Shown here: positions 5,801 through 51,792 of the stretch, one piece after another
Position numbering within the stretch: position 1 is the first letter of the stretch
Layout of the letters: every line of letters begins with the position of its first letter
From: Candidatus Sericytochromatia bacterium
GTDB taxonomy: Bacteria; Cyanobacteriota; Sericytochromatia; S15B-MN24; VGJW01
Assembly: GCA_035285595.1 (NCBI GenBank)
Contig: JAYKGV010000016.1
Span: 19,947-83,946 of the forward strand
DNA length: 64,000 bases
Reading direction: 5' to 3'
Translations under genes and position numbers: made by a program
Notes under the pieces: generated by a model
The model's database searches: none
The model's input: only the letters and a program-made list of their open reading frames with translations
Told to the model about the DNA's origin: nothing

Positions 5801-5829
5801 GGACCGTCGCCCTCTGACGGTCCTACAAT
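5801..5829. promoter_or_regulatory. Inverted repeat (ggaccgtc-N7-gacggtcc) immediately followed by TACAAT, upstream of the efflux operon
   Basis: Perfect 8-bp inverted repeat at 5801-5808/5816-5823, then TACAAT at 5824-5829. An AT-richer stretch lies at 5761-5795 between two divergent genes. Candidate operator/promoter. Confidence 0.25.
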
Positions 5830-5894
5830 GGGGAGCCTGCCCCGGGGGGAGTCCCGGCCCGATGGGTCGGGGTGTCTCGAGGGAGGAGTCGCCC

Positions 5895-15168: not shown

Positions 15169-15197
15169 GCCTTCCTTTCCCAGGGCCACCAGCAAGG

Positions 15198-32056: not shown

Positions 32057-33444
32057 GCCCGGTTCTCCTGTTCGTCGGCATCTGGGCCGCTTTGGCCACG
32101 GTGCTTCTGGTCCTGCAGGCACGAAAACTCGGCAGGATGCACGCGGATCGAGCCACGGCGATCGCCTTGTTGGAGCAACTTGGCGATCGCGCCCTTGCCC
32201 ACGCGTGGGATCCTGGTGCCGAGGTCGTCGTTCCCCCTGATTTTCGGCCGGCCGTCGAGACCGTGCGGCGCCTCGGGGATCAAGTTCATGCCTTCCACTT
32301 GCTTAATGTCGAGCAACTGATTGTGGACCGGGCCGAGCTTCAAGCCGTGCTGTTCTCGATGTCGGAGGGCCTTGTCATCTACGACATGGAGCTGACGCCG
32401 GTGCTGACCAATCCGGCCCTTCGGCAGATGGCCCAGCCAGGGATCCACAGGACGATGTTTCTCGAGCCCCACACTATGTTCCACGCCCGATGGGAGGACC
32501 CGGAACAGTTCGAGGGCATCGAGTCGGCGATGCGGCTCGAGCCCACGCTTCCCCGGACGGACATCCTGGCCCTGAAAGAGCCGCGGCAGTGGCTCAAGCG
32601 GTATTCGTCTCCGCTCTTCAATGCCAAGGCCCAGCAGATCGGTCATGTGGTCATCTACCACGATGTCACGGCGGAGCGCCAAGCCGACCAGATGAAGTCC
32701 GAGTTCATCACCAACGCTTCTCACGAATTGCGTACGCCGGTCACCAGCATGAAGCTGTTGCTGGAGAGTGCGGTGGATGTGCTGGACGGGGTGCAATGGC
32801 CAGAAGGAGGGGCTCGTCCCGCTGATCTGGACATGCTGGAGGGATTCCTGCGGGACGCCGTGGCCGAAGGGGACCGGATGCATGTGCTCGTCAATGACTT
32901 GTTGGACGTTTCCAAGTTGTCCTCACAGCGTGCGGATCTCAACCTCCAGCAGGTCGAGGCCTTGCGTGTGATCGAAGAGGCGGCCGCGACGGTGATGCCG
33001 CAGGTGCGTCAGCGGGACCAGCAACTCTCTCTCGACTTGCCCGGCTCGGCACTTCTGGTGGTGGACCGGGTCAGACTGCGCCAAGTGCTGGTCAATCTGT
33101 TAGGAAACGCCGTGAAGTATACCCCGATGGGGGGCGAGATACTGCTGACCCTTGCTCATGGCCCCGAGGGTTGGTTTTTCACCGTCGAAGATAGCGGGAT
33201 CGGCATTCCAGAAGAGGATTTGCCCCACGTGTTCGATCGCTTCTATCGGGTCGGTCGGGACAGGACCCGTGCGGGAGGGCCGGGGGGCTCGGGACTCGGT
33301 CTGTCCATCGTCAAGGCGGCCGTTGAAGCCCACGGGGGCAGGATTCGGGCGGAACGGCGTGAAGAGGGCGGCACGAGGATGCAGTTTCTGCTTCCCGATC
33401 ACCCATCGTCCGTGTCGCCTCTGTCCGGAACATCGAGCCTGTAG
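32053..33444 (+). CDS. Sensor histidine kinase (HisKA + HATPase_c), cognate to upstream regulator
   Basis: H-box TNASHELRTPVTSMKLL, N-box VLVNLLGNAVKYTP, G-boxes EDSGIGIPEEDLPHVFDRFYRV and GGSGLGLSIVKAAVEAHGG. N-terminal TM. GTGA overlap with the regulator gene. Confidence 0.85.
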   Translation: MSPVLLFVGIWAALATVLLVLQARKLGRMHADRATAIALLEQLGDRALAHAWDPGAEVVVPPDFRPAVETVRRLGDQVHAFHLLNVEQLIVDRAELQAVLFSMSEGLVIYDMELTPVLTNPALRQMAQPGIHRTMFLEPHTMFHARWEDPEQFEGIESAMRLEPTLPRTDILALKEPRQWLKRYSSPLFNAKAQQIGHVVIYHDVTAERQADQMKSEFITNASHELRTPVTSMKLLLESAVDVLDGVQWPEGGARPADLDMLEGFLRDAVAEGDRMHVLVNDLLDVSKLSSQRADLNLQQVEALRVIEEAAATVMPQVRQRDQQLSLDLPGSALLVVDRVRLRQVLVNLLGNAVKYTPMGGEILLTLAHGPEGWFFTVEDSGIGIPEEDLPHVFDRFYRVGRDRTRAGGPGGSGLGLSIVKAAVEAHGGRIRAERREEGGTRMQFLLPDHPSSVSPLSGTSSL

Positions 33445-39523: not shown

Positions 39524-39685
39524 ATGTCGCTGATCACCCGCCTTGTCCGTGAAGAAGAAGGCCAGAGCATGGTCGAGTACGGCATCATCGTGGCTGTCAT
39601 CGCGGCCGTCTGCATCGGCGGCTACAAGGCAGTGGGCGCTCAGGTCAACAAGTCGATCGACACCCTCATCAAGAACATGAAGTAG
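39524..39685 (+). CDS. flp: Flp family type IVb pilin (53 aa; not in the supplied ORF track, which lists only ORFs of at least 60 aa)
   Basis: MSLITRLVREEEGQSMVEYGIIVAVIAAVCIGGYKAVGAQVNKSIDTLIKNMK* carries the hallmark Flp motif G/QSMVEYGII (prepilin peptidase site G|XXXXEY) followed by a hydrophobic stretch. Strong RBS. Directly upstream of the prepilin peptidase and Tad genes. Confidence 0.85.
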   Translation: MSLITRLVREEEGQSMVEYGIIVAVIAAVCIGGYKAVGAQVNKSIDTLIKNMK

Positions 39686-39756: not shown

Positions 39757-40365
39757 GTGCTAGCCGTGATGCCCTTCTTCGTATCGGACCCCGTCCGCTG
39801 GACCGTTGTGCCGGTCTTGATCGTGGCTGTCGTGACCGACGTGCGTAGCCAGCGCATCTACAACTGGTTGACCTTTCCGGCCATGGGGCTCGCGGTCCTG
39901 GTTCGGGTGGGCTGGGGCTGGTGGACCGCGGGGGGGGCGCAAGCCGTGGAAGTCCTGGGGGATGTCCTGGGAGGATGGTTGGTCTTTCCCTTGGCTTTCC
40001 TGTTGATTGACGCGGTCTATGCGGGAAGGTGGGGACAGCTCAAGGGCATACGGGCCGGCGACATCAAATTGATGGCTGCGGCTGGAGCCTGGATAGGCCT
40101 GTGGCCCGCCCTGTCCGCCATTCTCGATACCGCACTCGTCGGCGGCGTGCTCAGTTTCTTGTGGGCCGCGCTGCACGGGTCCTTGGGGGGGGTCCTGCGC
40201 CAGGTCAGAGGATTCTTCGTGGCGATGGGCGCAGGCTTTCGCCAGCCTGCTTCCATGGTGGGGACCTCGCGTGCACCCCTCTTGCCTTACGCCCTTTCCA
40301 TCGCATTGGGGACCGTGGCAGCTTTGGCGTGGCCTCCCATCTGGCAATGGGGTGGCCAGGCATGA
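39757..40365 (+). CDS. cpaA: Prepilin peptidase CpaA/TadV (A24 family)
   Basis: Polytopic membrane protein VVPVLIVAVVTDVRSQRIYNWLTFPAMGLAVLV...GAGDIKLMAAAGAWIG with the conserved catalytic Asp pair. GTG start. Confidence 0.85.
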   Translation: MLAVMPFFVSDPVRWTVVPVLIVAVVTDVRSQRIYNWLTFPAMGLAVLVRVGWGWWTAGGAQAVEVLGDVLGGWLVFPLAFLLIDAVYAGRWGQLKGIRAGDIKLMAAAGAWIGLWPALSAILDTALVGGVLSFLWAALHGSLGGVLRQVRGFFVAMGAGFRQPASMVGTSRAPLLPYALSIALGTVAALAWPPIWQWGGQA

Positions 40366-41267
40366 AAAAGTCGAGGTCCGCGCCGAAGGGCCAGGCGATG
40401 GTGGAATTCGCCTTGGTGTTGCCCCTTCTGCTGCTGCTGACCTATGGCACGATCGAGATGGGTCTCGCGGTGCAGCGGCGCCTCGTCCTGACTGGAACCG
40501 CCTTCGTGGCGGCGCGCGTGGCGGCTGTTCACGGCGAGACGGCCGAAGCGGGGGTGCGTCGCGTGCTGGAACTCCACGCCGCCGACTCGGGTGCCGGTTG
40601 GATGTCCCGGGCCCGTGCCGACCTCGACCGAAGCTCGAGGTCCTTGACCCGGGTGACCGTGAGTTGCAGCGAGCAAGGCTTCACCTCCGCGCTTTCCGGA
40701 GCGATGGTCGCGACGGGTGGTCGACCGCCGGTCGCGCAGGGATGGGCGGTTTCGGCGGTCGTGCGTCCCGAGTTCGTTCCCGGGCGTCTGCGTCGAGGTG
40801 CGGCTCAGGCGCCCACGGATCTGCAAGTGGACTATCGAGTGTCCTTGCCTGGACTGGATCGCCTCAAAGGATTGGGAGAGGTGGTTCGCAAGTTGCCCGG
40901 CGGGGGCTCTGGCACCGAACTGGCCCTTGCGGCCGACCCGACGGTACAGGCCACGCTGGCCAATCCGATGGACCGCAACGGTTCTGTCTCCCCCAGCAAG
41001 CGCTACGTGGCACCCGAGAATGAGGATCGCGAGTTCCGCCAAGCGGGCAAGCTCGCCGACGGGCTTTCCCAGCTCGACAAAGTAGTCAAGGCCTTTTATG
41101 CCTCGTATGTCGTGGCAGCCACGGTACCTGGTTCGACCGGGGTCGATGCGACCTTGGCCGCCGTGGCCAAGGGCTTCGCGCAGGTGGACGGCACCCTCTC
41201 GTTGGCTGGAACGGCCGAGCGCTTCGACAAGGCCCAGAAAGCGTTCTTCGCGGGGACCGTCCGGTGA
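40362..41267 (+). CDS. tadE: TadE-like pseudopilin/pilus assembly protein
   Basis: The N-terminus MKKSRSAPKGQAMVEFALVLPLLLLLTYGTIEMG is the TadE/TadG signature (G|QAMVEF processed by CpaA). ATG overlaps the cpaA stop (ATGA). Confidence 0.75.
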   Translation: MKKSRSAPKGQAMVEFALVLPLLLLLTYGTIEMGLAVQRRLVLTGTAFVAARVAAVHGETAEAGVRRVLELHAADSGAGWMSRARADLDRSSRSLTRVTVSCSEQGFTSALSGAMVATGGRPPVAQGWAVSAVVRPEFVPGRLRRGAAQAPTDLQVDYRVSLPGLDRLKGLGEVVRKLPGGGSGTELALAADPTVQATLANPMDRNGSVSPSKRYVAPENEDREFRQAGKLADGLSQLDKVVKAFYASYVVAATVPGSTGVDATLAAVAKGFAQVDGTLSLAGTAERFDKAQKAFFAGTVR

Positions 41268-42136
41268 GGGACCGTCGCTCGCCCCGAGGGCAGTCGCTGG
41301 TTTATTTCACTCTGGTTCTGGCCGTGATCGTGGGTGTGCTTTACGCGACCTATGATCTGGCCCGGCTGACGACGGCCAAGATGCAGGCCCAGACGGCCGT
41401 GGATGCCGCGGCACTCGCCGGGACGGCCGTAAAGGTATCGATTCATCACACCCGGTCACTGGCCTATGCGGCGATGACGGGCCAGGCCACGCTTGCGCGG
41501 TTGAAATTCGCCAAGGCTCTTGCCGTCGTGGGCTCCAAACCGCCGTTGCCCGGGCAGCCTTATCTCGCTGCCGAAGAGTTCGACAAGTGGGTCGGCGAGG
41601 CCAATGCCCACGTGGCCCGATTGCGACGCCTCAGGGCGGGGCTCGTGGCTTACAACTCCTGGGTGGCCCGCGAGGGGCCGGCCGTCGTGGCTGATGCCGC
41701 TCGGCTTGCCTTCAATGCCAATGTTTCGGGCATGAACGCCGCGATGGGTGAAGGCACCGCCGCCAACGCCCGCAACCTCTCCCTCCTCGCCGGTCCCAGA
41801 AACTTGCCTGAAAACGGCGGTCAATTCGCTGCCGGGCGGTTCGTCGGGGGCGTAAACTACCCGGGTGAGGCGGCAGGTGCGGGAGGGGCCGCTGGCAAGA
41901 CTCTGGTCTGGGCCGAGCCCGTGTACCGTCCGCTGGGATCGGCGTTGCTCGGTGCGTCGCATCCTCTGGTGCTGCCTTCCGTCGCTGCGGCAGGCCTCGT
42001 CCCCGCGGGTGAGCTCAAGGCCGCGGAGCCTGGTTCGGGCGAGGCGGGTGCAGGAGGGGTCGGGCTGCGCTGGTACACCCCCCGCCTTCTTCAGGTGGGG
42101 GGGCTCAACGGATATCCACATGAACTGCTGCACTGA
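41264..42136 (+). CDS. TadG/TadE-like pilus assembly protein
   Basis: The N-terminus PRGQSLVYFTLVLAVIVGVLYATYDLARL...AQTAVDAAALAG is TadG-like (G|QSLVYF). GTGA overlap with the upstream gene. Confidence 0.7.
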   Translation: MRDRRSPRGQSLVYFTLVLAVIVGVLYATYDLARLTTAKMQAQTAVDAAALAGTAVKVSIHHTRSLAYAAMTGQATLARLKFAKALAVVGSKPPLPGQPYLAAEEFDKWVGEANAHVARLRRLRAGLVAYNSWVAREGPAVVADAARLAFNANVSGMNAAMGEGTAANARNLSLLAGPRNLPENGGQFAAGRFVGGVNYPGEAAGAGGAAGKTLVWAEPVYRPLGSALLGASHPLVLPSVAAAGLVPAGELKAAEPGSGEAGAGGVGLRWYTPRLLQVGGLNGYPHELLH

Positions 42137-42776
42137 TCGCAGCTCGCCCCGCGGCCAGGCGCTCGTCGAGATGGCGATCGTGCTGCCCGTCGGCGTGCTG
42201 TTGCTGCTGGTGGTGGGTTATCTCGGTAAGGGATTGCTGGAGCGCCAGCAGGTCGTGATGGCCGCCCGGCATGCGGCAAGGACCGCGGCTCATCAGGCCA
42301 TGGCGGGCTCTGCGGCCAAGATCACCGGTGCCGGTGTCCTGCAGTCGGCGACTGGCATGGCGGGTCGGACAGCTGCCGTCCGTGACCTGATTCCGGAAGG
42401 GATGGCCAAGGCCCCCGATTGGTCAAGCGCCGTCGCAGGCACCGCCACGACGCACTTGAGGCCCCGCCCGCTCGGGCCCGGAGCGATGGGTTACGTCGCC
42501 ACTCAGGTACAGCAGGTCGAGGGTCGAGCCATGACCTTCGGACTGGGATTCATCCTTTATGGAGCCAAGGCCGAGAGCCGCATGCGCCTGCTGGAGCCTC
42601 TGCGTCGCCAGGTGCAGGGCGTGGCTCGCCAGGTCGGTCGTCCACCGTCCGGGTTGGCGGCCCCCCTTGCCGTGTCAGCGCAGGCTTTCATGCCGGGTGA
42701 ACTGCCGGTTCACCATCCGCAGGTGGGGCTCCTTGAGCAGAACCGCTGGATCCGCGAGATTGTGGAGGGCCCATGA
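42120..42776 (+). CDS. Third TadE-like pseudopilin
   Basis: MNCCTDRSSPRGQALVEMAIVLPVGVLLLLVVGYLGKGLL is a TadE motif (G|QALVEMAIVLP). The chosen ATG overlaps the upstream gene by 17 nt. Confidence 0.65.
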   Translation: MNCCTDRSSPRGQALVEMAIVLPVGVLLLLVVGYLGKGLLERQQVVMAARHAARTAAHQAMAGSAAKITGAGVLQSATGMAGRTAAVRDLIPEGMAKAPDWSSAVAGTATTHLRPRPLGPGAMGYVATQVQQVEGRAMTFGLGFILYGAKAESRMRLLEPLRRQVQGVARQVGRPPSGLAAPLAVSAQAFMPGELPVHHPQVGLLEQNRWIREIVEGP

Positions 42777-43126
42777 CCGGGATCGTGCTCCTCGCGGCCT
42801 TGACGGGACAGCCGGAGATTCCCGGATGTACCGGGGTGACGGTGGGGGGAAAGGGGATAGCCCGCTGGGCTCGATTGTCGGGTCCTCCGGCCACGGCTCT
42901 CGACCGGTTCGATGCATGTTGGCGACGGGCAGGTTGGTCTGCCGAAGAAGAACCCGCGATTCTGGACGGCGGAGACGCGCCAGGCCGTTTGCGGTTGTGG
43001 CGCAGGGGGCCGTGGAGGGCCACGATCTTCGAGGCTCGGGACGCAGGCGGGCGTGCGCTATGCTTGGTCTTGATGGATCGTGGGTCCCCCGGTGGGGCCG
43101 TCCGACCTGCCCCGGGAGGGCCCTGA
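42773..43126 (+). CDS. Hypothetical small protein (117 aa) inside tad locus
   Basis: ATGA overlap with the upstream gene; the stop lies 3 nt before cpaB. No motif recognised. Confidence 0.4.
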   Translation: MTGIVLLAALTGQPEIPGCTGVTVGGKGIARWARLSGPPATALDRFDACWRRAGWSAEEEPAILDGGDAPGRLRLWRRGPWRATIFEARDAGGRALCLVLMDRGSPGGAVRPAPGGP

Positions 43127-43129: not shown

Positions 43130-44179
43130 ATGTCTGATCTGAGATCGCGCTTGCGTCGCCCCGACGAGGGTCCTGTTGCCGACCCGTCGCCTGCGGCGTC
43201 GGGAAAGTCCTCGAGACGTGCCAAGCCTTCCTCCCGCCGTGGCGGAAAAGGTGTCCGGGAAGGTGGCCAAGCAGGAATCCTAGGTGGTTTCGACGTCAAT
43301 CGACGCCTGTTGCTGGCCGCAGGAGGTCTCGCGGGCCTCGCCGCCTTGCTCGCCGTGACCTATCTGTCCGATGCGTCGGACCGCATCGCGGGGAGCGGAG
43401 CCAAGATCAAGGTCTGGGTGGTGGCCCGCGATTTGCCTGCTCGACATGAGTTGCAGGAGGGTGATCTCGAGGAGCGCGAGGTGCCGGCCCTCTATCTTCC
43501 GGCCTCGCACGTTCCGGCGGGGCGCGCCATGGTCGGGCGGGTCACGACCACGCCCCTCTGGCCTGGCGAGGTTCTGGTCGAGGGACGGGCCGTGATTGCG
43601 GGGGCTGCAACCGGCGTCTCACCTCGTATCGGTGCGGGCGAGCGGGGTTTCGTCTATGTGCCGGATGGCTTGCAGGACGTGCCTCTGGTGCGGCCGGACG
43701 ATCGGGTGGACTTGGTCGCGACGGTGCCTGAGGCAGAGGGAGGCGGTCGGTTGGTATCTCGACCGGTTGTTCATGCCGCACGGGTTATCGGCGTCGGGGA
43801 TCGCTTCTCGACCGAGGCGACGGAGTCGGTCACAGGACCCAATGGGGCCGTCACCCTGGCGGTGCCCCAGGGGCGGGTGCAGTTGCTGGCGGTCCTGGCC
43901 GAGGCCGGTCGCCTGCACTTCATCCTCAGGTCTCCGGGAGACGTGGCGACCGGTGGTCAGCCGGACATCCGCGAGCTTGAGCGACTCGTATTGGGACAGG
44001 TGGCACGTCCTGCCGTCACCAAGCCACTGCCCCCGCGCACCGTGGTCAAGGTTGTCAGGGGGGCCGCCCCACCGCCTCGGATCGTGAGAATTCAGGCGCC
44101 ACCCGCAAAGCCTCCTGTTCGCAGGGTCCCCCAGGTCGAGATCTATAACGGGGCTTCTCGCCAAGGCGGAGGCAACTGA
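43130..44179 (+). CDS. cpaB: Flp pilus assembly protein CpaB/RcpC (SAF-domain protein)
   Basis: N-terminal TM (LLLAAGGLAGLAALLAV), then IKVWVVARDLPARHELQEGDLEEREVPALYLPASHVP...GERGFVYVPDG...GDRVDLVATV, typical of the CpaB SAF/beta-clip fold. RBS gggaggg. Confidence 0.8.
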   Translation: MSDLRSRLRRPDEGPVADPSPAASGKSSRRAKPSSRRGGKGVREGGQAGILGGFDVNRRLLLAAGGLAGLAALLAVTYLSDASDRIAGSGAKIKVWVVARDLPARHELQEGDLEEREVPALYLPASHVPAGRAMVGRVTTTPLWPGEVLVEGRAVIAGAATGVSPRIGAGERGFVYVPDGLQDVPLVRPDDRVDLVATVPEAEGGGRLVSRPVVHAARVIGVGDRFSTEATESVTGPNGAVTLAVPQGRVQLLAVLAEAGRLHFILRSPGDVATGGQPDIRELERLVLGQVARPAVTKPLPPRTVVKVVRGAAPPPRIVRIQAPPAKPPVRRVPQVEIYNGASRQGGGN

Positions 44180-44215: not shown

Positions 44216-45241
44216 ATGAGCCGACGCCATCTTGTCTTTCTTCTCGCCCTAGTTGCCGCCTTGGGCCCGTGGCCTTCCCGGTGGCCCGGGGGGGCCCCTC
44301 CGGCATGGGCCAGCGTAGCCGATTTGACCGTCCGCCAGGGGCATACTACGGTCTTCCGCGTGCCCCGAGGTGCAACCCGAGTGGCCATCGGCGACTCCGC
44401 GGTCGCGGCCGTGACGCTGATTCAAGATGGAACCGGCGAGAATCTCCTGATCGAAGGTCGAAAGCCGGGGCTGACCAATTTCCTGGTCTGGACGGCCGCC
44501 AGTCGCCAACCCTCCAACTATCGCCTCGAAGTGTTGTCCGGCCGCCGCACCGAGACCGTCGTGATTCGTGTTCAAGTCTGGGAGCTGTTGAACGGGAATG
44601 ACAGCCAGACGGGTATCCGCTGGTCCGAGGGCTTGGCGTTCCAGGAGGCGCCGCCTACCGCTCCCTTTGCCCTTGGTCTTCCGGTCCGGGCCGGCGTCCT
44701 TGAGGCTCGTCTCCAGGCCCTGGCTCAAGCGAAGCGAGCCCAGCTCGAAGCTTCGCCAACCCTCCTTGCCCTCTCGGGTCAGGAGAGCAAGTTCCTGTCG
44801 GGTGGTGAGTTGCCTGTGGTGGTCCAGACTCCCAACACCGTCGCAGTGGATTGGAAGCCCTTCGGGGTGGGCCTCAAGGTGACGCCCGTGGTCGAGGGAG
44901 AGGAAATCCTCCTGCGGATCAAGCCTGAGGTCTCCAGCATCGACAGGTTGAATGGGGTCCAGACCGGCAACTTCAATATCCCGGCCATTGCCACCCGCAT
45001 GGCCGAGACCCAGGTGGCTGTCAGGCCAGGGCAGGAGATTGTCCTGGCCGGCCTTAAGCGCCGTACGTTGCGTACGGTGGTTTCACGTGTGCCCCTTCTC
45101 GGGTGGGTGCCTTTATTGGGTGCGTTTTTCACGTCGACCCAGCAGGAGGAAGAAGAGGGCGAGCTGGTGTTCCTCGTGACCCCGACGCTTTTCAAGGAAG
45201 GCGAGGCCATGCCCGAGAAAGGCCATGGCAAGGCGCGATGA
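44216..45241 (+). CDS. cpaC: Secretin CpaC/RcpA (type II/III secretion system secretin family), short form
   Basis: Signal peptide. The C-terminal half ...FLSGGELPVVVQTPNTVAVDWKPFGVGLKVTPVV...ETQVAVRPGQEIVLAGL...VPLLGWVPLLGAFF is the canonical secretin domain. Confidence 0.8.
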   Translation: MSRRHLVFLLALVAALGPWPSRWPGGAPPAWASVADLTVRQGHTTVFRVPRGATRVAIGDSAVAAVTLIQDGTGENLLIEGRKPGLTNFLVWTAASRQPSNYRLEVLSGRRTETVVIRVQVWELLNGNDSQTGIRWSEGLAFQEAPPTAPFALGLPVRAGVLEARLQALAQAKRAQLEASPTLLALSGQESKFLSGGELPVVVQTPNTVAVDWKPFGVGLKVTPVVEGEEILLRIKPEVSSIDRLNGVQTGNFNIPAIATRMAETQVAVRPGQEIVLAGLKRRTLRTVVSRVPLLGWVPLLGAFFTSTQQEEEEGELVFLVTPTLFKEGEAMPEKGHGKAR

Positions 45242-47334
45242 CTGCGCCGCGCCTCACGGTGCTGCTGTCCGCCCGTGGTGGGACCGGTCGCAGCATTCTT
45301 GCGGGAAACCTGGCCCTCGCCTTGTTGCGTCGGGGGCGTCAGGCCGTCTGGTTGATCGATGGCGACGAGGTCTCTGGCGGTTTCCAGGCAGAGGCCTTCG
45401 ATTTGCAGGCGGGCCACGCGCACTGGGGGGAGTCCCTGCGTCACGGGACGCCCTTTTCCGAGACCCTCGTGCGTCACGGCTCGGGTTTGGACCTGTTGCC
45501 GGCACCGCCCATGGGGTGGGGCCAAACCTTGGACCCGGCTGCTCTTGCGGCCCGCCAGCGCGAGTGTGCCGCAGCTCACGTGGTACTGGATCTTACAGGT
45601 CCGGGCCTGCTGGCCGAGTCTGCCCTTGGCTGGCTGGATCTTGCTTCTTCCGTGGTGCTCGTGGTGCCGCCGGACATCCCGTCCCTGAGCGCGACACGGA
45701 ATCTGCTCGACCATTTGAGGTCCCAGCATGTGGCGCTTGATCGCGTCTTGCTGGTCGTCAATCGTGTGGGCGTCGTGCAGGATGTCACTCCGCGCGACGT
45801 GGCGTTCGAACTGGGGCTTGACCTCGTGGCCGCAGTGCCGTTCGACCCTGCCGTCGTGGCCTCGCTCAACCGTGGCGTCCCCTTATTGGCTCCGGCGTCG
45901 CCCCCGGCGACCGCCTTCGGCAAGGCCGTGCTCGGGGTGGCCCAGGCCGTGCAGGCTTCTCCGGTCGTGGACTGGGTTCCGCTGGCCGCCCGGCTTGCGC
46001 GACGCGCGGAGGGGACAACCCCATCCACGTCGGGAGATTCCACGGCCCTCGTCCCCATTCAGGTCGCGTGGAGCGAGGGGCACGCCGAGGTACGGCAGCG
46101 CCTCCACCGTTTGCTGGTGGAAGAACTCAAGCGATTGGAGCTTGGGCTGGAGCGTCTCGTGGATTCCCAGCATCGCCTGGAGGTCAGGCGGCAAGTCCAG
46201 CGTACGGTGGCCGAGCTCATAGAGGACATGCCCGAGACGGCGGCGATGGGTCGAGACGAGCGCACGGCCCTCGCGCGTGACGTGACGGACGAGGCCGTGG
46301 GGTATGGTCCGTTGGAGCGTTATCTGGCGGATCCGGCCATCAGCGAGATCATGGTCAACGGTCCCTCGCGCATCTTCGTCGAGCGGGAAGGTCGCCTGCA
46401 GTTGATGCCCGACTCCTTCACGGACGAGACGCAATTGCGGGTGGTGATCGATCGTATCGTGGCCCCGCTGGGTCGAAGAGTCGACGAGTCGAGCCCGATG
46501 TGCGATGCCCGATTGCCCGATGGTAGTCGCGTGAATGTCATCATCCCGCCCTTGGCTCTGCGCGGTGCCACGATCACCATCCGCAAATTCCCGCACCGCA
46601 GGATGACCATGGACCATTTGGTCCAGTTTGGTTCCTTGACTCCCGAGATGGCCGATTTCCTGCGACAGTGCGTGCGTGCCCGGTTGAACGTGTTCATCAG
46701 CGGGGGAACGGGCTCGGGCAAGACGACCCTGCTCAACGTGCTGTCGTCTTTCATTCCGGAAGAAGAGCGCATCGTGACCATCGAGGATGCCGCCGAGTTG
46801 CAGCTGGCCCAGACCCATGTGATTCCGCTCGAGGCCCGGCCGCCCAATCTTGAGGGTGTGGGGGCCGTGCCCATCAGGGATCTGGTCCGTAACTCGCTGC
46901 GCATGCGACCGGATCGGATCGTGGTGGGTGAGGTCAGAGGCGGCGAGGCGCTCGACATGCTGCAGGCGATGAACACGGGACATGATGGTTCTCTGGCCAC
47001 CGGCCACGCCAACTCCCCCCGGGACGCCATGGCCCGCATCGAGACCATGGTGCTGATGGCGGGGATGGATCTTCCTGTAAGGGCCATCCGCGAGCAGATC
47101 GCCAGCGCCCTGCATGTCGTCGTGCAGGTCTCACGGCTTTCGGATGGGTCGCGCAAGATCACCCGCATCACCGAAGTCACGGGCATGGAGGGTGAGACCC
47201 TGACCTTGCAGGATCTCTATTCGTTCGAGCAGACGGGAGTGGATGCCAAGGGCCGTGTCATGGGAGCCTTCCGTGCCAGTGGCCTGAGGCCCCGTTTCGC
47301 CGAGGTCTTCGAACGGGCCGGAGTCGGGCACTGA
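45238..47334 (+). CDS. cpaF: Fused CpaE/TadZ-like (ParA/MinD-type) domain + CpaF/TadA pilus-assembly ATPase in one reading frame (698 aa)
   Basis: N-terminal ~280 aa: LTVLLSARGGTGRSILAGNLALALLRRGRQAVWLIDGDEV... is a deviant-Walker-A MinD/ParA fold, as in CpaE. From ~aa 300: LKRLELGLERLVD...RIFVEREGRL...VFISGGTGSGKTTLLNVLSSFIPEEERIVTIEDAAELQL...RMRPDRIVVGEVRGGEALDMLQAMNTGHDGSLATGHANS are the TadA/VirB11 Walker A/B, Asp and His boxes. There is no stop codon between the two parts. ATG overlaps the cpaC stop (ATGA). Confidence 0.8.
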   Translation: MTAPRLTVLLSARGGTGRSILAGNLALALLRRGRQAVWLIDGDEVSGGFQAEAFDLQAGHAHWGESLRHGTPFSETLVRHGSGLDLLPAPPMGWGQTLDPAALAARQRECAAAHVVLDLTGPGLLAESALGWLDLASSVVLVVPPDIPSLSATRNLLDHLRSQHVALDRVLLVVNRVGVVQDVTPRDVAFELGLDLVAAVPFDPAVVASLNRGVPLLAPASPPATAFGKAVLGVAQAVQASPVVDWVPLAARLARRAEGTTPSTSGDSTALVPIQVAWSEGHAEVRQRLHRLLVEELKRLELGLERLVDSQHRLEVRRQVQRTVAELIEDMPETAAMGRDERTALARDVTDEAVGYGPLERYLADPAISEIMVNGPSRIFVEREGRLQLMPDSFTDETQLRVVIDRIVAPLGRRVDESSPMCDARLPDGSRVNVIIPPLALRGATITIRKFPHRRMTMDHLVQFGSLTPEMADFLRQCVRARLNVFISGGTGSGKTTLLNVLSSFIPEEERIVTIEDAAELQLAQTHVIPLEARPPNLEGVGAVPIRDLVRNSLRMRPDRIVVGEVRGGEALDMLQAMNTGHDGSLATGHANSPRDAMARIETMVLMAGMDLPVRAIREQIASALHVVVQVSRLSDGSRKITRITEVTGMEGETLTLQDLYSFEQTGVDAKGRVMGAFRASGLRPRFAEVFERAGVGH

Positions 47335-48200
47335 TGGATCCGCGCCTGCTGTTCGTTTTCCTGCTGGCTTTCCTCTCGGCCGGCCTTTTGGCCGTGGTGG
47401 TGGCGCGTCGTTATGAGGCCCGCCTGGGTCGATGGCTGGAGGGTTATCTGGCGCGTACGCGCAAGGCCCTCGCACGCACGCGCAATCCCTTGTCGACCGA
47501 GCGTTTCGCTCGCCAGCAGGCTGGTCTCGTCGGCCTCTGCGGCCTGCTGGGTTTCGTGCTGGGGGAGGGTTTGGCGAGCCGGGTCTTTCTGGCGCTGCTG
47601 GCTGCGGGGGTCGTCTGGAGCTTGTCGAATCGTTGGTTGGATGTGCAGTGGCAAAGGTATGTCAAGGAATTTGAGGAACAACTGCCCGATGCCGTGGGTG
47701 TCCTGGCCAATGCCGTCCGCTCGGGATTTTCGGTCCAGCAGGCCCTGGATCTCGTGACACAGGAGTTCGCCGATCCCATGGGAGCCGAGGTCCGCGAGGT
47801 CATGCAGGAGCTGACCATGGGCGTGCCTTTCGATCAGGCGGTCCAGAGCTGGTCCGATCGCATGAATCACGATGACCTCGACATCGTGTGCACGGCGCTT
47901 GTCATCCAGCGGCAGACGGGCGGCAATTTGGGCGAGATCCTGGACAACCTGGCCGGAACGATGCGGGAGCGTCGGCGCATCCAGGGGCAGATCCGCACCT
48001 TGACCACCCAGGGACGATTCTCGGGTTCGATCCTCTCCTTCCTGCCCGTAGGACTCTACTTTATCCTCCTGCTGATCGCGCCTGATCGCATGGGTGTGCT
48101 GTTCACCGAGCCTCTGGGGTGGGCGCTCGTGCTGATCTGCGTGGTGATGGTGACCACGGGCAGCCTCGTCGTGCGCAAGATCGTGGCCTTGGACGTCTGA
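47334..48200 (+). CDS. tadB: Flp pilus assembly inner-membrane protein TadB (T2SS-F domain)
   Basis: LPDAVGVLANAVRSGFSVQQALDLV...QRQTGGNLGEILDNLAGTMRERRRIQGQIRTLT is the GspF-like domain. TGATG overlap with the upstream gene. Confidence 0.8.
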   Translation: MDPRLLFVFLLAFLSAGLLAVVVARRYEARLGRWLEGYLARTRKALARTRNPLSTERFARQQAGLVGLCGLLGFVLGEGLASRVFLALLAAGVVWSLSNRWLDVQWQRYVKEFEEQLPDAVGVLANAVRSGFSVQQALDLVTQEFADPMGAEVREVMQELTMGVPFDQAVQSWSDRMNHDDLDIVCTALVIQRQTGGNLGEILDNLAGTMRERRRIQGQIRTLTTQGRFSGSILSFLPVGLYFILLLIAPDRMGVLFTEPLGWALVLICVVMVTTGSLVVRKIVALDV

Positions 48201-49120
48201 TGCCTGTCGCCCTGCTTTTCCTGTTGATTTTCGTGGCGGTCTTCGGGGCCACCCTTCTGGGCGTAGTGGCCTTTTCGAAGCCCCAGGCCCGATCTCAGGT
48301 GCAGGCGCGCCTCAAGCGGGTGGCTCGGCCTGGCGCTGGCATGTCGCAGCGTCCTCCGCGCGCAAAGACGGCGCCCTTGCGGGTGCTGGAGGACAGGCTC
48401 AAGCCGTTTGCGGTCGAGCGCTTGTCCGAAGAGCGGATGGCGGCCTTGCAGGCACGGCTCCTGATGGCCGGGGATGATCACACCACCCCGGCGCGGTTCG
48501 TGGCTCGGCAGTGGATCTTTGCGGTGCTTCTTCCTGTGGTGTTCCTGCTGGTGAACGGATCGGTCCTCGAGTTGCCCCAGACCGGAGTTGGGGTGGGGCT
48601 GGTGCTCGCCGGCGTGGCAGGATATAGATTGCCAGCGTCGCGTCTCGACCAGGCCATCGAGCTTCGGCAGCAAGCTATCCTGCGGCAACTGCCGACCACC
48701 TTGGACTTGTTGACCACTTGTGTAGAGGCCGGCATGTCCCTGACGGCGGCGATGCAAAAGATCAGCGAACGCATGCGTCCCCATCCCTTGCGGGAGGAGA
48801 TCGAGAAGACCCTGCGCCAGATGCAGTTGGGGCGCAGCAGAGGGGATGCGCTGCGTGAGCTCGGTCGCCGCGTCGGCCTGAAGGAACTCAACAGCGTGGC
48901 CATCGCGATGGTCCAGGCCGAGACGATGGGGGCTTCGATTGCCCGCACCCTGCGAATTCAGAGCGGCATCATCCGCGAGGCCCGCTGGCAGAGAGCCCAA
49001 GAGCAGGCTCAGAAGGCCCCGCTCAAGCTGGTCTTCCCCATCACCTTCCTGATCTTTCCGGTCATCTTCATCATCATCTTCGGTCCGCTCGTCCTGGGCA
49101 TCCTGACGGGGAAGGCCTAG
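48200..49120 (+). CDS. tadC: Flp pilus assembly inner-membrane protein TadC (T2SS-F domain)
   Basis: LPTTLDLLTTCVEAGMSLTAAMQKISERM...RQMQLGRSRGDALRELGRRVGLKEL...QAETMGASIARTL is the GspF-like domain. TGATG overlap with tadB. Confidence 0.8.
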   Translation: MPVALLFLLIFVAVFGATLLGVVAFSKPQARSQVQARLKRVARPGAGMSQRPPRAKTAPLRVLEDRLKPFAVERLSEERMAALQARLLMAGDDHTTPARFVARQWIFAVLLPVVFLLVNGSVLELPQTGVGVGLVLAGVAGYRLPASRLDQAIELRQQAILRQLPTTLDLLTTCVEAGMSLTAAMQKISERMRPHPLREEIEKTLRQMQLGRSRGDALRELGRRVGLKELNSVAIAMVQAETMGASIARTLRIQSGIIREARWQRAQEQAQKAPLKLVFPITFLIFPVIFIIIFGPLVLGILTGKA

Positions 49121-49121: not shown

Positions 49122-49463
49122 ATGCCCAGCTTGTGGCTGGAGGATCGCCTCGTGGTGGCCCGGCTCGAGGAAGCCCGTACGCCGTTGGCGCGATTGCGAG
49201 GGTTGGGCCTCAGGCAGCGCCTCGAATTCGATCAAGGCCTGCTGCTGGTGCCGTGCAACAGCATTCACACCTTCTGGCCGTCCTTTCCGCTGGACGTGTT
49301 GTTCCTTTCCCGCGACTTCCGTATCCTTAGGATTCTTCATGACCTTCCACCGCGACGACTGTCCCCCGTGGTCTGGCGTTCCCGGCAGGTCTTGGAATTG
49401 ACTGCCGGAAGGGCTCGGCAACTCGGGCTCGAGGAGGACATGACGCTGAGGTGGGAGCCTTGA
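49122..49463 (+). CDS. DUF192 (COG1430) family protein
   Basis: GLRQRLEFDQGLLLVPCNSIHTFWPSFPLDVLFLSRDFRIL matches the DUF192 core (GL..R...G.LF...IHT.GM.FPLDV.F.D). Confidence 0.6.
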   Translation: MPSLWLEDRLVVARLEEARTPLARLRGLGLRQRLEFDQGLLLVPCNSIHTFWPSFPLDVLFLSRDFRILRILHDLPPRRLSPVVWRSRQVLELTAGRARQLGLEEDMTLRWEP

Positions 49464-51049
49464 GGTACCGCGGAACAGTCGTTGTGGCCGTGGCGGCCGC
49501 CGCAGGCCTCGGACTGTCCCAGGTGGCCGCGGCCCGGAACATCGACCCGGCGTCGGCCGGGGCATACCTTATAGAACGTGGTTTCCTGCCAGGAGTCTGG
49601 GGAGGCAGCGCTTCCAATCTTGCACGAGTATCTCGCTATGACGCGGCGTGGATTCTGGCTGCGTTCCTGGATCCTGCGGATCACGCGTTCATGGTGACGG
49701 CGTGGGCCGATGTCCCACCTGGTTTCTGGGCCTTGTCAGCGGTCAACCGGGTGACGGCTCGTGACCTGATGGAGGCCGATGGGGCGAATTTTTCCGGGAC
49801 GTCGGCCATCTCCCGGGGGGCTTTCATGGTGGCCCTCGACAAGGTCCTGCGTCTCAGGGCCGCTCCGTTGCCCGCGCCGCCCGAACGCCGCCTGGTCCTG
49901 ACGGATATCAAGGGCTTCTCCGGACAAGACGCGTTGCAGCGGGCTGCCAATGATTGGCTGCTGCTGGACAGGGGGGGGGCGTTCCGACCGCAGGAATATC
50001 TGACCCGCCAAGATGCGGTGTCATGGGTCTACAAGGCGGCGGCTCTGGTGGATCCGGGAGTGGCGGCGCGTCTGCTGGCTTACCTGCGACCTTCTCCGAC
50101 GCCGGTGCCGTCTGAGACTGAGAGCCTGCTGCCGACGCCTGGTCCCGGCTCGACGATGGCACCCCCTCCCACGCCCGTGCCAACACCTCGTTTCTCTCCC
50201 ACACCGGGCCCCTCAGTGACGTCGTTGCCCCGTCCGACCCCCGCGCCCCGCACGACTCCCGCGTGGTCTCCACGCGAAACGCCCCCCCCGTGGTTGATCA
50301 TGCCTTCCTGGGATCCGACGCCCGTCGTCGCTCTTCCCACCCCTTCGCCGGTCCCGACTGCCGTCGCGCCGCTGCCCACCCCCGTACCACAGGACAAGCC
50401 ACAGGGGGTGTCTGCCTCATCGCGCCCGGGATGGCGCTTGCCCAGTTTGGACTGGAGTCGTAGGCAGGGTGCGGCCTGGGTTGTCAGTGGCTTGGCGGTG
50501 GGGGCCGGTGATGGTCGAACCTTCCGCGACTTGAGCTTCTACTTGCCTGGCTCGGTCGATGCCGGTCTCTCACTCGAGGTCCCCGGCTGGGCCCTCGAAG
50601 CCAGGGCGCTCGGGCGCTGGTTTCCCGGTGCCGCGGCCGGCCTCGTCCAGTCGGAGGTCTCGGCGGATGCCTTCTGGTTGCCGCAGGCAGCCGCGTCGGT
50701 TCGTTCAGGGGTCGGCCTCGGACTCCAGCTGGGCTTGCAGGTGCCGACGGGCACGACCGATCCGGAGGCCGGGAGAACCTTCGTAGGTGCCGGTCCGTCG
50801 GCCGTGGTCAGGATGCCTCTGGGGCCCTTGCAGGCGTGGGCTTTGGCCCGAAGCCAAGTTGGGCTTGCCCTGTCGACTTCGGTCGGTCCCGGATTCGGAA
50901 TTGGCGGCGAACTTGGAGCGCGGTGGCCTTCCCCCTTGGGGCTGCCGGTGGATCCCGTGTTGTCGTGGCGACTGCAGGGTGTGTTGCGTTCCAGCGGCTC
51001 TCAGGATTGGGTCCAAGGGGTGGGTCTTGGTGTGGGCAGGAGTTTCTGA
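49451..51049 (+). CDS. SLH-domain protein with Pro/Thr-rich linker and C-terminal Gly/Ala-rich (beta-barrel-like) domain: candidate SLH-anchored outer-membrane protein
   Basis: Signal peptide (RYRGTVVVAVAAAAGLGLSQVAAA). Two SLH-like segments (YDAAWILAAFLDP...; FSGTSAISRGAFMVALDKVL; QEYLTRQDAVSWVYKAA). Linker PSPTPVPSETESLLPTPGPG...PTPVPQ. The C-terminus is rich in alternating G/A/S/V with terminal ...GVGLGVGRSF. GTG start. Confidence 0.65.
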   Translation: MGALRYRGTVVVAVAAAAGLGLSQVAAARNIDPASAGAYLIERGFLPGVWGGSASNLARVSRYDAAWILAAFLDPADHAFMVTAWADVPPGFWALSAVNRVTARDLMEADGANFSGTSAISRGAFMVALDKVLRLRAAPLPAPPERRLVLTDIKGFSGQDALQRAANDWLLLDRGGAFRPQEYLTRQDAVSWVYKAAALVDPGVAARLLAYLRPSPTPVPSETESLLPTPGPGSTMAPPPTPVPTPRFSPTPGPSVTSLPRPTPAPRTTPAWSPRETPPPWLIMPSWDPTPVVALPTPSPVPTAVAPLPTPVPQDKPQGVSASSRPGWRLPSLDWSRRQGAAWVVSGLAVGAGDGRTFRDLSFYLPGSVDAGLSLEVPGWALEARALGRWFPGAAAGLVQSEVSADAFWLPQAAASVRSGVGLGLQLGLQVPTGTTDPEAGRTFVGAGPSAVVRMPLGPLQAWALARSQVGLALSTSVGPGFGIGGELGARWPSPLGLPVDPVLSWRLQGVLRSSGSQDWVQGVGLGVGRSF

Positions 51050-51792
51050 TGGTTTTTCTACCGTGGACGGTTGCGGGCCTGGTGGTCGCACTTGCTTTCG
51101 GGGCGCCGCCACTTGTGGAGGGACGCCTGCGAGAAGGTCTGGCCGCTGGCGTGGCCGACGTGGGTCTGAAGGTGGGGAAGGTGGCTTGGACCCCGCGTGC
51201 CGCGACGCACGACACGTGGGGCGTGGTGGGTGACATGGAGGGTGATTTCCTGATGCCAGCCACAACGTCGGTGCCGCCCCTGGCTTGGGAACTTCGAGGC
51301 ATTCGGCTGGACATGGCCTCTATCTTCAGAGAACCTGCACTCGCCCAACCTGCGAGGTTACGATTTCAGATCAGACTCCGTGATGCGGAGGTTTTGCCGT
51401 TCCTGCGTGCCGAGGCCTCGTCCATGCTCAAGCAACTGCCTGCGGCGCTGCCCATGTCGCCCGACATCCGCATCAAGGATTTCACGCTTGCGGAAGGTCG
51501 CGTGCAACTGCAGATTTCGGCGACAATCCCGCTGGCTCCGGTGGCCCTGCCGGTACAAATTGGCCTGACGCCTGTCCTGTCCCCCGAGGGCCGGTTGGGC
51601 CTCGAGAACGTCTCCGTCCGCATGATGGGGCAGGAGTTGGCCCGTAATCTGCCCTTGCCCAAGCTCGTCGACGTAGCGTCCTTGCTGCCTGCCGAAATCA
51701 GTGAGCCACGGGTCGAGGAGTTCGTCATCGCCGACGGTTGGCTGAAGCTGACCGCCACAGCCCTGGTCCGGGATCTGCCTCGCAGTCCCTGA
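51049..51792 (+). CDS. Hypothetical protein (247 aa) with N-terminal TM/signal segment
   Basis: ATG overlaps the upstream stop (TGATG). MVFLPWTVAGLVVALAFGAPPLV is hydrophobic. No family recognised. Confidence 0.45.
   Translation: MVFLPWTVAGLVVALAFGAPPLVEGRLREGLAAGVADVGLKVGKVAWTPRAATHDTWGVVGDMEGDFLMPATTSVPPLAWELRGIRLDMASIFREPALAQPARLRFQIRLRDAEVLPFLRAEASSMLKQLPAALPMSPDIRIKDFTLAEGRVQLQISATIPLAPVALPVQIGLTPVLSPEGRLGLENVSVRMMGQELARNLPLPKLVDVASLLPAEISEPRVEEFVIADGWLKLTATALVRDLPRSP

What the first reader, a model, noticed from the sequence alone, without database searches (positions are those of the whole stretch)
45238..47334. CpaE/TadZ-like ParA-type domain and CpaF/TadA ATPase encoded as a single 698-aa fusion protein
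In characterised tad loci cpaE (tadZ) and cpaF (tadA) are separate adjacent genes. Here the MinD/ParA-like domain (deviant Walker A GGTGRS, as in TadZ) runs straight into the VirB11-family TadA ATPase with no stop codon. No receiver-like N-domain is present, unlike many TadZ proteins. A fusion would fix a 1:1 stoichiometry of the localisation factor and the secretion ATPase. Alternatively, a sequencing or assembly error could have removed a stop.
Basis: partly seen in the sequence, partly recalled or inferred. Interest (0 to 1): 0.55.

Follow-up and report, generated by a model that had tools for sequence, protein, structure and literature searches.

The report
TadZ–TadA fusion pilus motor ATPase
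The 698-residue gene is a real, evolutionarily conserved fusion of the Tad-pilus positioning protein (TadZ/CpaE, without its receiver domain) to the pilus motor ATPase (TadA/CpaF). The same architecture was described in Bdellovibrio in a July 2026 preprint, so this is a new member of a known kind.

Summary
Window 45238-47334 (+) is one uninterrupted 698-aa ORF inside a complete chromosomal flp/tad locus. Residues 1-245 form a MinD/ParA-fold domain whose Walker A (SARGGTGRS) has arginine at both lysine positions. Residues 260-278 are a disordered linker, and residues ~281-698 are a complete CpaF/TadA (E 1e-130 to Caulobacter CpaF).

A sequencing or assembly error is excluded:
- The closest relative (81% identity, Ca. 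Tanganyikabacteria/Sericytochromatia) is fused on 18 contigs.
- Dozens of 700-770-aa homologues at 42-63% identity are fused.
- Indels between relatives are multiples of three.
- dN/dS is 0.13-0.18 in the N-domain and linker.

The N-domain's nearest non-fused relatives are ~400-aa receiver+ParA proteins encoded directly upstream of cpaF, which is the CpaE/TadZ arrangement. No second tadZ-like domain occurs in the 64 kb.

The architecture is not new. A bioRxiv preprint (10.64898/2026.07.08.737194) describes an "atypical TadZA fusion ATPase" in Bdellovibrio bacteriovorus, also receiver-less, whose TadZ+linker region binds the polar hub RomR.

What I can add: the window's clade of fusions is monophyletic (99% bootstrap), and a shared origin with the Bdellovibrio type is not supported (34% / 2.5%).

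The most likely function is a positioning or scaffold module tethered 1:1 to the motor.

The parts
45238..47334 (+). tadZA: single 698-aa ORF fusing a TadZ-like domain to TadA/CpaF
   Evidence: Conserved as one ORF in relatives.
45238..45972 (+). N-terminal TadZ/CpaE-like MinD/ParA-fold domain (residues 1-245), with no receiver domain
   Evidence: The A1 profile hits 3EA0 at 2.7e-30 and archaeal MinD at 1e-23. The AF2 model has pLDDT 87.9, and Foldseek TM to MinD/3EA0/FlhG/FleN is 0.73-0.81. The domain matches the ATPase half of the REC+ParA genes upstream of cpaF in 42 loci.
45268..45294 (+). Atypical Walker A SARGGTGRS (residues 11-19); signature Lys and P-loop Lys are both Arg
45352..45372 (+). 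Switch-I-like LIDGDEV (D41 nearly invariant, D43 invariant)
   Evidence: Conservation in alignment A1; coordinates.
45577..45597 (+). Walker B-like HVVLDLT (invariant D118). The invariant N175 of the NR motif lies at 45751-45771.
45973..46014 (+). Basic amphipathic helix after the ATPase domain (residues 246-259); possibly a retained membrane-targeting helix
   Evidence: AF2 predicts a helix at 246-259. Hydrophobic moment is 0.73. The family-wide signal is weak. This reading is inference.
46015..46071 (+). Disordered linker (residues 260-278), including the clade-conserved TALVP motif at 46042-46059
   Evidence: pLDDT is below 50 for 260-278. Linker length varies from ~20 to ~70 aa among relatives.
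46078..46299 (+). CpaF NTD1 three-helix bundle (residues 281-354)
   Evidence: AF2 helices at 281-300, 310-330 and 339-354. NTD1 is as defined for CpaF in PMC11300603.
46300..47331 (+). CpaF NTD2 and CTD ATPase core. Motifs: Walker A GGTGSGKTT 46702-46728, Asp box 46768-46800, Walker B 46909-46941, His box 46975-47013.
   Evidence: Residues 318-689 align to Caulobacter CpaF 111-482 at E 1e-130. The core motif residues are invariant in alignment A3, with coordinates.
39524..39685 (+). flp pilin gene (53 aa, motif G/QSMVEYG)
   Evidence: Translation; syntenic Flp_Fap gene in L081.
39757..40365 (+). tadV/cpaA prepilin peptidase (A24)
   Evidence: ORF; Peptidase_A24 at the same place in L081.
40362..42776 (+). 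Three TadE/TadG-like minor-pilin genes (40362-41267, 41264-42136, 42120-42776)
   Evidence: Pfam TadE/Tad hits; starts assigned.
42773..43126 (+). 117-aa gene of unknown function, conserved in synteny
43130..44179 (+). cpaB/rcpC
   Evidence: TIGR03177 at 4e-29, above its cut-off, and Pfam RcpC.
44216..45241 (+). cpaC/rcpA secretin
   Evidence: Pfam Secretin 1e-36 and T2SS-T3SS_pil_N.
47334..48200 (+). tadB (T2SSF platform protein)
48200..49120 (+). tadC (T2SSF platform protein)

Best explanation
This is a genuine tadZA gene in a chromosomal Flp/Tad pilus locus of a Sericytochromatia-like bacterium. A receiver-less TadZ/CpaE-type MinD/ParA domain is joined through a short amphipathic helix and a ~20-residue disordered linker to a complete TadA/CpaF motor ATPase. 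The join falls where free CpaF has its disordered N-terminal tail. Shown here: the domains, their homology, the intact reading frame, purifying selection on all three parts, and the absence of any other tadZ-like gene in the window. Inferred: the C-terminal part forms the hexameric motor that powers pilus extension and retraction. Also inferred: the N-domain binds nucleotide, because its Walker A glycines and Ser, switch-I Asp, Walker B Asp and adenine-binding Asn are conserved, but hydrolyses it poorly or not at all, because the P-loop Lys is missing as in TadZ. I infer that the N-domain dimerises and acts as the positioning and assembly scaffold of the machine. Fusion makes delivery of that scaffold to the motor obligatory and fixes the ratio at 1:1. 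Losing the receiver domain, which in Caulobacter is proposed to link CpaE dimers into a ring and to bind polar landmarks, would then be compensated by the covalent tether or by a separate partner protein, as RomR does in Bdellovibrio.
For: The ORF and domains are established.

Conservation:
- Dozens of 700-770-aa homologues cover 99-100% of the query.
- The 81%-identical P0121 occurs on 18 contigs, the three shown coming from three collections (ENA/JGI/NCBI, JGI, Logan), in a syntenic locus.
- The ORF is also intact in L084, where the annotation calls only 428 aa.
- dN/dS is 0.13-0.17 (N-domain), 0.12-0.18 (linker) and 0.08 (CpaF).

TadZ affinity:
- In 42 of 80 genome loci the N-domain matches the C-terminal ATPase half of a ~400-aa receiver+ParA gene directly upstream of cpaF.
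- The library-wide profile search gives the same architecture for the best non-fused hits.
- The best solved relative, 3EA0, also lacks the P-loop lysine.

Structure: the N-domain model has pLDDT 87.9. The full model has pLDDT 84.9, is disordered at 260-278 and has the CpaF three-helix NTD1. The CpaF part aligns to Caulobacter CpaF at 1e-130.

Functional precedent:
- Bdellovibrio TadZA is essential, its TadZ+linker region binds RomR, and it lacks the receiver domain.
- The Caulobacter in situ model places CpaE dimers around the CpaF hexamer (PMC13170226).
Against: No experiment exists for this protein or its clade. ATP binding, dimerisation, membrane binding and localisation are all inferred. 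Fold and sequence searches place the N-domain about as close to MinD/FlhG/FleN as to TadZ-type structures, and the E. rectale TadZ structure 3FKQ is not among the top matches. The Caulobacter model has 12 CpaE per 6 CpaF, so a 1:1 fusion cannot reproduce that ring. Arginine at both lysine positions could mean loss of nucleotide binding altogether. A stand-alone tadZ elsewhere in the genome cannot be excluded from a 64-kb window.
Confidence: 0.85

Rival explanations
1. The fusion is an artefact: a sequencing or assembly error removed the stop codon or shifted the frame between separate tadZ and tadA genes.
For: Most loci in other phyla do carry two separate adjacent genes. One relative is annotated as only 428 aa.
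Against: The same single ORF occurs in the 81%-identical relative on 18 contigs, the three shown coming from different collections, and in dozens of more distant homologues. The 428-aa annotation is a start-site call on an intact 744-codon ORF. Indels between the window and its relatives are 3 and 6 nt, and dN/dS in the linker is 0.12-0.18.
Confidence: 0.01
2. The N-domain is not of TadZ/CpaE origin. It would be a MinD/FlhG/FleN-type ATPase recruited independently, with a different role such as regulating motor activity rather than positioning.
For: A single-sequence PDB search hits archaeal MinD best. Foldseek's top hits are Aquifex MinD, FlhG and FleN, with 3FKQ TadZ absent from the top 50. 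About half of the nearest library relatives have a canonical KGGxGK[ST].
Against: The nearest non-fused relatives are receiver+ParA proteins encoded immediately upstream of cpaF. The profile's best PDB hit (3EA0, 108.8 bits against 86.9 for MinD) shares the lysine-less Walker A. The domain sits exactly where tadZ sits in tad loci, and no other tadZ-like gene is in the window.
Confidence: 0.07
3. The N-domain is a decaying relic, a pseudo-ATPase with no function that is carried along by the essential TadA part.
For: Both Walker A lysines are replaced. Pfam scores for this sequence fall below the gathering thresholds. Some fused homologues have a strongly degenerate motif, for example DTREGLGQS in Elusimicrobiota.
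Against: dN/dS is 0.13-0.17 across the domain. Seventeen columns are invariant, including nucleotide-binding positions G14, G15, G17, S19, D43, D118 and N175. The AF2 fold is confident. In Bdellovibrio the TadZ+linker region is needed for RomR binding.
Confidence: 0.05

Closest known systems
TadZA fusion ATPase of Bdellovibrio bacteriovorus (bioRxiv 10.64898/2026.07.08.737194, July 2026)
   Same: [quoted passage not shown] A Bdellovibrio sp. homologue (L026) aligns over residues 19-696.
   Different: Identity is only ~25% in the N-domain and ~54% in the CpaF part. The Bdellovibrio-type proteins mostly keep a canonical GGKGGVGK[ST], whereas the window has RGGTGRS. Bootstrap support for a common origin is 34% (CpaF core) and 2.5% (N-domain). 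The host is a Sericytochromatia-like bacterium, and it is unknown whether it has a RomR partner.
CpaE (Caulobacter) / TadZ (Aggregatibacter, Eubacterium rectale 3FKQ), stand-alone
   Same: Shared features are the MinD/ParA fold, a Walker A that has lost the P-loop lysine, a position directly upstream of tadA in a tad locus, and conserved nucleotide-binding residues.
   Different: The window protein has no N-terminal receiver/ARD domain, is covalently joined to TadA, and has arginine at both lysine positions. The proposed Caulobacter ring has 12 CpaE per 6 CpaF held together by REC domains (PMC13170226), which a 1:1 receiver-less fusion cannot copy.
CpaF/TadA motor ATPase (Caulobacter, PDB 8RKD/8RJF/9E24)
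   Same: Residues 318-689 align end to end with CpaF 111-482 at E 1e-130. The NTD1 three-helix bundle, NTD2, CTD and all catalytic boxes are present.
   Different: The disordered residues 1-79 of free CpaF (PMC11300603) are replaced by the TadZ-like domain, a helix and a ~20-residue linker.
3EA0, 'ParA family ATPase' of Chlorobium tepidum (245 aa, no receiver domain)
   Same: It is the best solved-structure relative of the N-domain family (2.7e-30). It is receiver-less, and its Walker A SAKGGDGGS lacks the P-loop lysine.
   Different: It is a stand-alone protein, and its function and locus were not examined here. My recollection that it is regarded as a TadZ homologue is unverified.

Membership tests
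TadZ/CpaE | MinD/ParA (SIMIBI) ATPase fold | tested here: met
   The profile hits MinD, FleN and 3EA0 at 1e-17 to 2.7e-30. The AF2 model has pLDDT 87.9 and Foldseek TM of 0.73-0.81 to these structures.
TadZ/CpaE | Atypical Walker A lacking the canonical P-loop lysine (K/RGGxGx[S/T]) | tested here: met
   The motif is SARGGTGRS. Within the fused family the position is R, T, S, C or A, and it is plastic in the nearest relatives. The consensus is quoted from the preprint.
TadZ/CpaE | [quoted passage not shown] | tested here: not met
   The Walker A starts at residue 11, so there is no room for a receiver domain. Stand-alone relatives carry a ~140-aa REC domain. Bdellovibrio TadZA also lacks it.
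TadZ/CpaE | Encoded in a tad locus immediately upstream of tadA/cpaF | tested here: met
   The domain is fused in frame to cpaF, with cpaB and cpaC upstream and tadB and tadC downstream.
TadZ/CpaE | ATP-dependent dimerisation with low ATPase activity, and a role as polar localisation or assembly hub | not testable with these tools
   These properties need biochemistry and cell biology. Only the conservation of nucleotide-binding residues was seen here.
TadA/CpaF (VirB11-type secretion ATPase of Tad pili) | NTD1 three-helix bundle, NTD2 and CTD with Walker A, Asp box, Walker B and His box | tested here: met
   Pfam T2SSE scores 3e-66, above its cut-off. The match to CpaF structures is 1e-130. 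The motifs were located and their core residues are invariant. The AF2 secondary structure agrees.
TadA/CpaF (VirB11-type secretion ATPase of Tad pili) | NCBIfam TIGR03819 (TadA family conjugal-transfer-associated ATPase) cut-off | tested here: not met
   The score is 341.7 bits against a cut-off of 373.15. From its name, that model describes a conjugal-transfer-associated TadA subfamily rather than Flp-pilus CpaF, so I do not read the miss as evidence against CpaF identity (my inference).
TadZA fusion (Bdellovibrio type) | Single ORF: receiver-less TadZ, flexible linker, TadA | tested here: met
TadZA fusion (Bdellovibrio type) | Common descent with the Bdellovibrio protein (orthology) | tested here: inconclusive
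   The NJ base tree joins the two fused clades, but bootstrap support is 34% (CpaF core) and 2.5% (N-domain). Mean N-domain identity between the clades (0.229) is no higher than to unfused TadZ (0.237).
TadZA fusion (Bdellovibrio type) | Binding of the TadZ+linker region to a polar hub (RomR) | not testable with these tools
   No genome-wide data are available for this organism, and no experiment exists.

The most novel reading that the evidence does not exclude
The Sericytochromatia-type fusion (the window's clade) arose independently of the Bdellovibrio TadZA, so tadZ-tadA fusion with loss of the receiver domain would be a recurrent solution. In that case these machines build a cytoplasmic assembly unlike the Caulobacter one. 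Three N-domain dimers, or six monomers, would be tethered to one hexamer, instead of a free ring of six REC-linked CpaE dimers. A retained internal amphipathic helix could hold the motor at the membrane.
Probability: 0.3. Interest if true: 0.5.

Novelty: new member of a known kind. Interest (0 to 1): 0.3.

Why it matters
TadZ/CpaE is the least understood core part of Tad pilus machines. How it contacts the motor, and at what ratio, is only now being modelled from tomograms. A natural fusion shows that TadZ and TadA work in direct physical proximity and that the receiver domain is dispensable in some lineages. Such fusions occur well outside Bdellovibrio: in Sericytochromatia and relatives, Omnitrophota, Elusimicrobiota and WOR-3. 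The window's clade is robustly monophyletic and possibly of independent origin. This widens a result so far reported for one predator and offers compact single-chain targets for structural work on the TadZ-TadA interface. For this particular gene the result is confirmatory rather than surprising.

Tried and rejected
- The exact-sequence look-up of the window protein found no record.
- The scan's "matches 5-696" at first looked like fusions in many phyla. ORF analysis showed most are two adjacent genes, a ~400-aa REC+ParA gene plus cpaF. My first reading of these as short receiver-less tadZ genes was wrong and was corrected.
- Foldseek on the N-domain model cannot separate TadZ from MinD, FlhG or FleN, and 3FKQ was not among the top 50 hits.
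- The TadZ structure paper (PMC3272108) is not held, and no paper mentions 3EA0.
- Fitch parsimony on the NJ tree suggested about 10 fused/unfused changes. Six of the seven 'unfused' singletons inside the window's fused clade come from records marked partial or from proteins shorter than 500 aa. I take them to be fragments or start-site miscalls like P0123, but none was checked individually. The three near the Bdellovibrio-type clade carry an FHA-like N-domain.
- NJ bootstraps could not settle single versus multiple origin.
- The hydrophobic-moment test for a retained membrane-targeting helix gave only a weak family-wide signal: 0.48 against 0.38 for the linker control and 0.40 for unfused tails.
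- I considered an internal start that would yield free TadA. The GTG that PGAP used in L084 is GTC in the window, so no conserved junction start exists.
- tRNA and Rfam scans of the window found nothing.
Full report
**Observation.** Window 45238-47334 (+) is a single open reading frame of 698 codons plus TGA. The ATG at 45238 overlaps the stop codon of the upstream secretin gene (ATGA). The start MTAPRLTV is shared with the closest relative. Pfam and NCBIfam place a T2SSE/TadA ATPase at residues ~317-645. They give weak MinD/ParA hits for residues 8-232: CbiA 1.8e-5, below the curated cut-off, and minD_arch 1e-10. The motif GGTGRS is at residues 14-19 within SARGGTGRS.

**Locus.** The gene lies in a complete, co-directional flp/tad cluster:
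- flp pilin (39524-39685)
- prepilin peptidase (39757-40365)
- three TadE/TadG-like genes (40362-42776)
- a 117-aa gene of unknown function
- cpaB/rcpC (43130-44179)
- the secretin cpaC/rcpA (44216-45241)
- the fusion gene
- tadB (47334-48200) and tadC (48200-49120)

A profile of the N-domain finds no other TadZ/MinD/ParA-like domain in any frame of the 64 kb, even at E<=10. Flanking genes are housekeeping genes (LeuRS, Obg, ProB) and an AcrB transporter, so the locus is chromosomal.

**Not an artefact.** A search of 5.8 billion proteins returned dozens of 700-770-aa proteins that cover 99-100% of the query at 42-81% identity. They carry both ParA/CbiA and T2SSE Pfam domains, and JGI already names several "CpaF family ATPase/MinD-like ATPase". 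The closest cluster (81% identity) contains MBM3258868.1 from Candidatus Tanganyikabacteria/Sericytochromatia. That exact protein is on 18 contigs, and the three places shown come from three collections (ENA/JGI/NCBI, JGI, Logan), always within the same gene order. One relative is annotated as a 428-aa CpaF, but its DNA has the same intact ORF, so the shorter protein is a start-site call. Between the window and two relatives, indels are 3 and 6 nt. dN/dS is 0.13-0.17 in the N-domain, 0.12-0.18 in the linker and about 0.08 in the CpaF part. All three segments are therefore translated and under purifying selection.

**What the N-domain is.**
- An alignment of 20 fused N-domains (A1) has 17 invariant columns. 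They include the Walker A glycines and Ser19, D43 (switch I), D118 (Walker B) and N175 of an NR motif. The P-loop lysine position varies.
- As a profile, A1 matches 3EA0 best. This is a 245-aa Chlorobium "ParA family ATPase" (2.7e-30) whose Walker A SAKGGDGGS also lacks the P-loop lysine. Archaeal MinD (1e-23), bacterial MinD and FleN follow.
- The AlphaFold model of the domain is confident (pLDDT 87.9, pTM 0.89). It superposes on MinD, 3EA0, FlhG and FleN with TM 0.73-0.81. Structure alone does not separate TadZ from MinD.

Context does separate them. In 42 of 80 genome loci recovered with the full protein, the N-domain matches the C-terminal half of a separate ~400-aa gene lying directly upstream of cpaF. 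The N-terminal ~140 residues of that gene are a response-regulator receiver domain. An exhaustive profile search of 1.84 billion representatives gave the same picture. After a handful of fused proteins and their fragments, the best hits are ~400-aa proteins matched at residues ~140-390, with Response_reg+AAA_31/ParA architecture. That is the CpaE/TadZ arrangement. The N-domain is therefore a TadZ/CpaE-type ATPase domain that has lost the receiver domain.

**Walker A.** In the fused family the motif is:
- xARGG[TVL]GRS in the window's closest subclade
- AKGG[QLV]GRS in the next tier
- KGG[VT]G[ACST]S in the many Sericytochromatia/Obscuribacterales-type proteins
- canonical GGKGGVGK[ST] in the Bdellovibrio-type proteins
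- degenerate in Elusimicrobiota

Among the 149 best library relatives, the P-loop position is K in about half. Otherwise it is R, C, T, S, A or V. Loss of the P-loop lysine is thus a family trait. Arginine at the signature-lysine position is the rarer feature of this subclade.

**Domain boundary.** The full-length model (pLDDT 84.9; pTM 0.62, consistent with two rigid modules whose relative orientation is uncertain) divides as follows:
- the ATPase domain to about residue 240
- a helix at 246-259
- a disordered stretch at 260-278
- three helices (281-300, 310-330, 339-354)
- the NTD2 and CTD of a secretion ATPase

Residues 318-689 align with residues 111-482 of Caulobacter CpaF at E 1e-130. 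In free CpaF, residues 1-79 are disordered and 80-149 form the three-helix NTD1 (PMC11300603). The join therefore sits where CpaF has its flexible N-terminal tail. This is what simple read-through of a tadZ stop codon into the adjacent tadA would produce. The linker is Pro/Ala-rich, varies from ~20 to ~70 residues among relatives, and ends in a clade-conserved TALVP motif. All CpaF catalytic boxes are present, and their core residues are invariant.

[quoted passage not shown] It has a ParA/MinD-like TadZ region with a K/RGGXGXS/T motif, a flexible linker and TadA, and it lacks the atypical receiver domain. According to the preprint, the gene could not be deleted, TadZ plus linker is necessary and sufficient to bind the polar hub RomR, and the protein moves dynamically between poles. 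The architecture is thus already described, although the passages I read do not survey its distribution.

Recent in situ work on Caulobacter fits six CpaE dimers around the CpaF hexamer. In that model REC domains link the dimers and a C-terminal amphipathic helix sits at the membrane (PMC13170226). A second tomography study also suggests CpaE contributes to the outer cytoplasmic ring.

**Distribution and origin.** True single-ORF fusions in the genome collection come from Bdellovibrionales/Oligoflexia, Omnitrophota, WOR-3 and an unclassified bacterium. Protein hits add Sericytochromatia, Obscuribacterales and Elusimicrobiota. One Vampirovibrionales genome has the genes unfused.

On a neighbour-joining tree of the CpaF core, the fused proteins fall into two groups:
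- Clade A contains the window and all Sericytochromatia-type proteins (99% bootstrap).
- Clade B holds the Bdellovibrio, Omnitrophota, Elusimicrobiota and WOR-3 proteins, with three FHA-like-CpaF proteins nested nearby (51%).

The union of the two clades has only 34% support. On the N-domain tree, clade A is again monophyletic (78%), but the two clades together reach 2.5%. Mean identity between their N-domains (0.229) is no higher than to unfused TadZ domains (0.237). A common origin with the Bdellovibrio protein is therefore unresolved, and an independent origin is plausible. These are simple distance trees, so a proper likelihood analysis is needed.

**Mechanism.** Shown: the fusion, its conservation, the TadZ-type origin of the N-domain, retention of nucleotide-binding residues apart from the lysines, and a complete motor. 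Inferred from the families:
- The C-terminal part hexamerises and drives pilus extension and retraction.
- The N-domain binds ATP with little turnover and dimerises, as TadZ does.
- The N-domain serves as the placement and assembly scaffold.

The fusion fixes a 1:1 ratio and guarantees co-delivery. With six N-domains per hexamer, at most three dimers can form, unlike the twelve CpaE of the Caulobacter model. Without REC domains, the ring contacts proposed there cannot exist. The tether, or a separate partner such as RomR in Bdellovibrio, would have to replace them.

The basic amphipathic helix at 246-258 (hydrophobic moment 0.73) sits where stand-alone relatives end in short basic/hydrophobic tails. 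It may be a retained membrane anchor, but the family-wide signal is weak.

**Verdict.** The architecture has a published precedent and is already recognised in automated annotation. I therefore rate it a new member of a known kind, of modest interest. The main open point is whether this clade represents a second, independent tadZ-tadA fusion.

Noticed in passing
P0001 and P0003 (1155-1156 aa); P0004, P0008, P0014 (816-959 aa), among the hits: P0001 carries three complete T2SSE/CpaF modules in one polypeptide, and P0004, P0008 and P0014 carry two. P0003, of the same length, was not scanned. They are covalently linked secretion-ATPase trimers or dimers that group with actinobacterial CpaF in the NJ tree.
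   Followed up: partly
L043 9506-11272 (Acidithiobacillus), L072, L077: Single ORFs with an N-terminal region that looks FHA-like by eye, fused to CpaF. Pfam found only T2SSE in the one I scanned (L043). They are another N-terminal fusion type and nest next to the Bdellovibrio-type TadZA clade on the CpaF tree.
   Followed up: partly
window 46042-46059 (residues 269-274): A small TALVP motif is conserved across the window's clade between the variable Pro/Ala-rich linker and CpaF NTD1. Its function is unknown. PGAP used the GTG of this valine as the start codon in L084, but the window has GTC there.
   Followed up: partly
window 45973-46014 (residues 246-259): A basic amphipathic helix (VPLAARLARRA, hydrophobic moment 0.73) directly follows the ATPase domain. 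It sits at the position where stand-alone CpaE-like proteins end in short basic/hydrophobic tails, so it may be a retained membrane-targeting helix. The family-wide signal is weak.
   Followed up: partly
window 49122-51792 (+): Three genes are conserved downstream of tadC in the window and in L081-L084: DUF192 (49122-49463), a ~520-aa protein with a hydrophobic N-terminus and a weak SLH hit (49451-51049), and a gene (51049-51792) whose L081 counterpart has a faint LmeA hit. They may be accessory parts of this tad system.
   Followed up: no
window 4058-6340, 13099-15636, 17281-20643, 20647-22512 (all on the - strand): Four long ORFs (621-1120 aa) have no Pfam match at 1e-4. I did not check whether they are real genes or GC-rich spurious ORFs.
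   Followed up: no
window 32053-33444 (+) and 34123-36069 (-): Two histidine-kinase genes (HisKA+HATPase_c) lie just upstream of the tad cluster. The second is also conserved next to the tad locus in L081. It could be a regulator of the pilus genes.
   Followed up: no
L084 6001-7287 (GCA_035286125.1, JAYKIS010000053.1): The public annotation calls only a 428-aa CpaF and leaves 810 bp unannotated, although the full 699-codon fused ORF is intact. Similar start-site miscalls may make such fusions look rarer than they are.
   Followed up: yes
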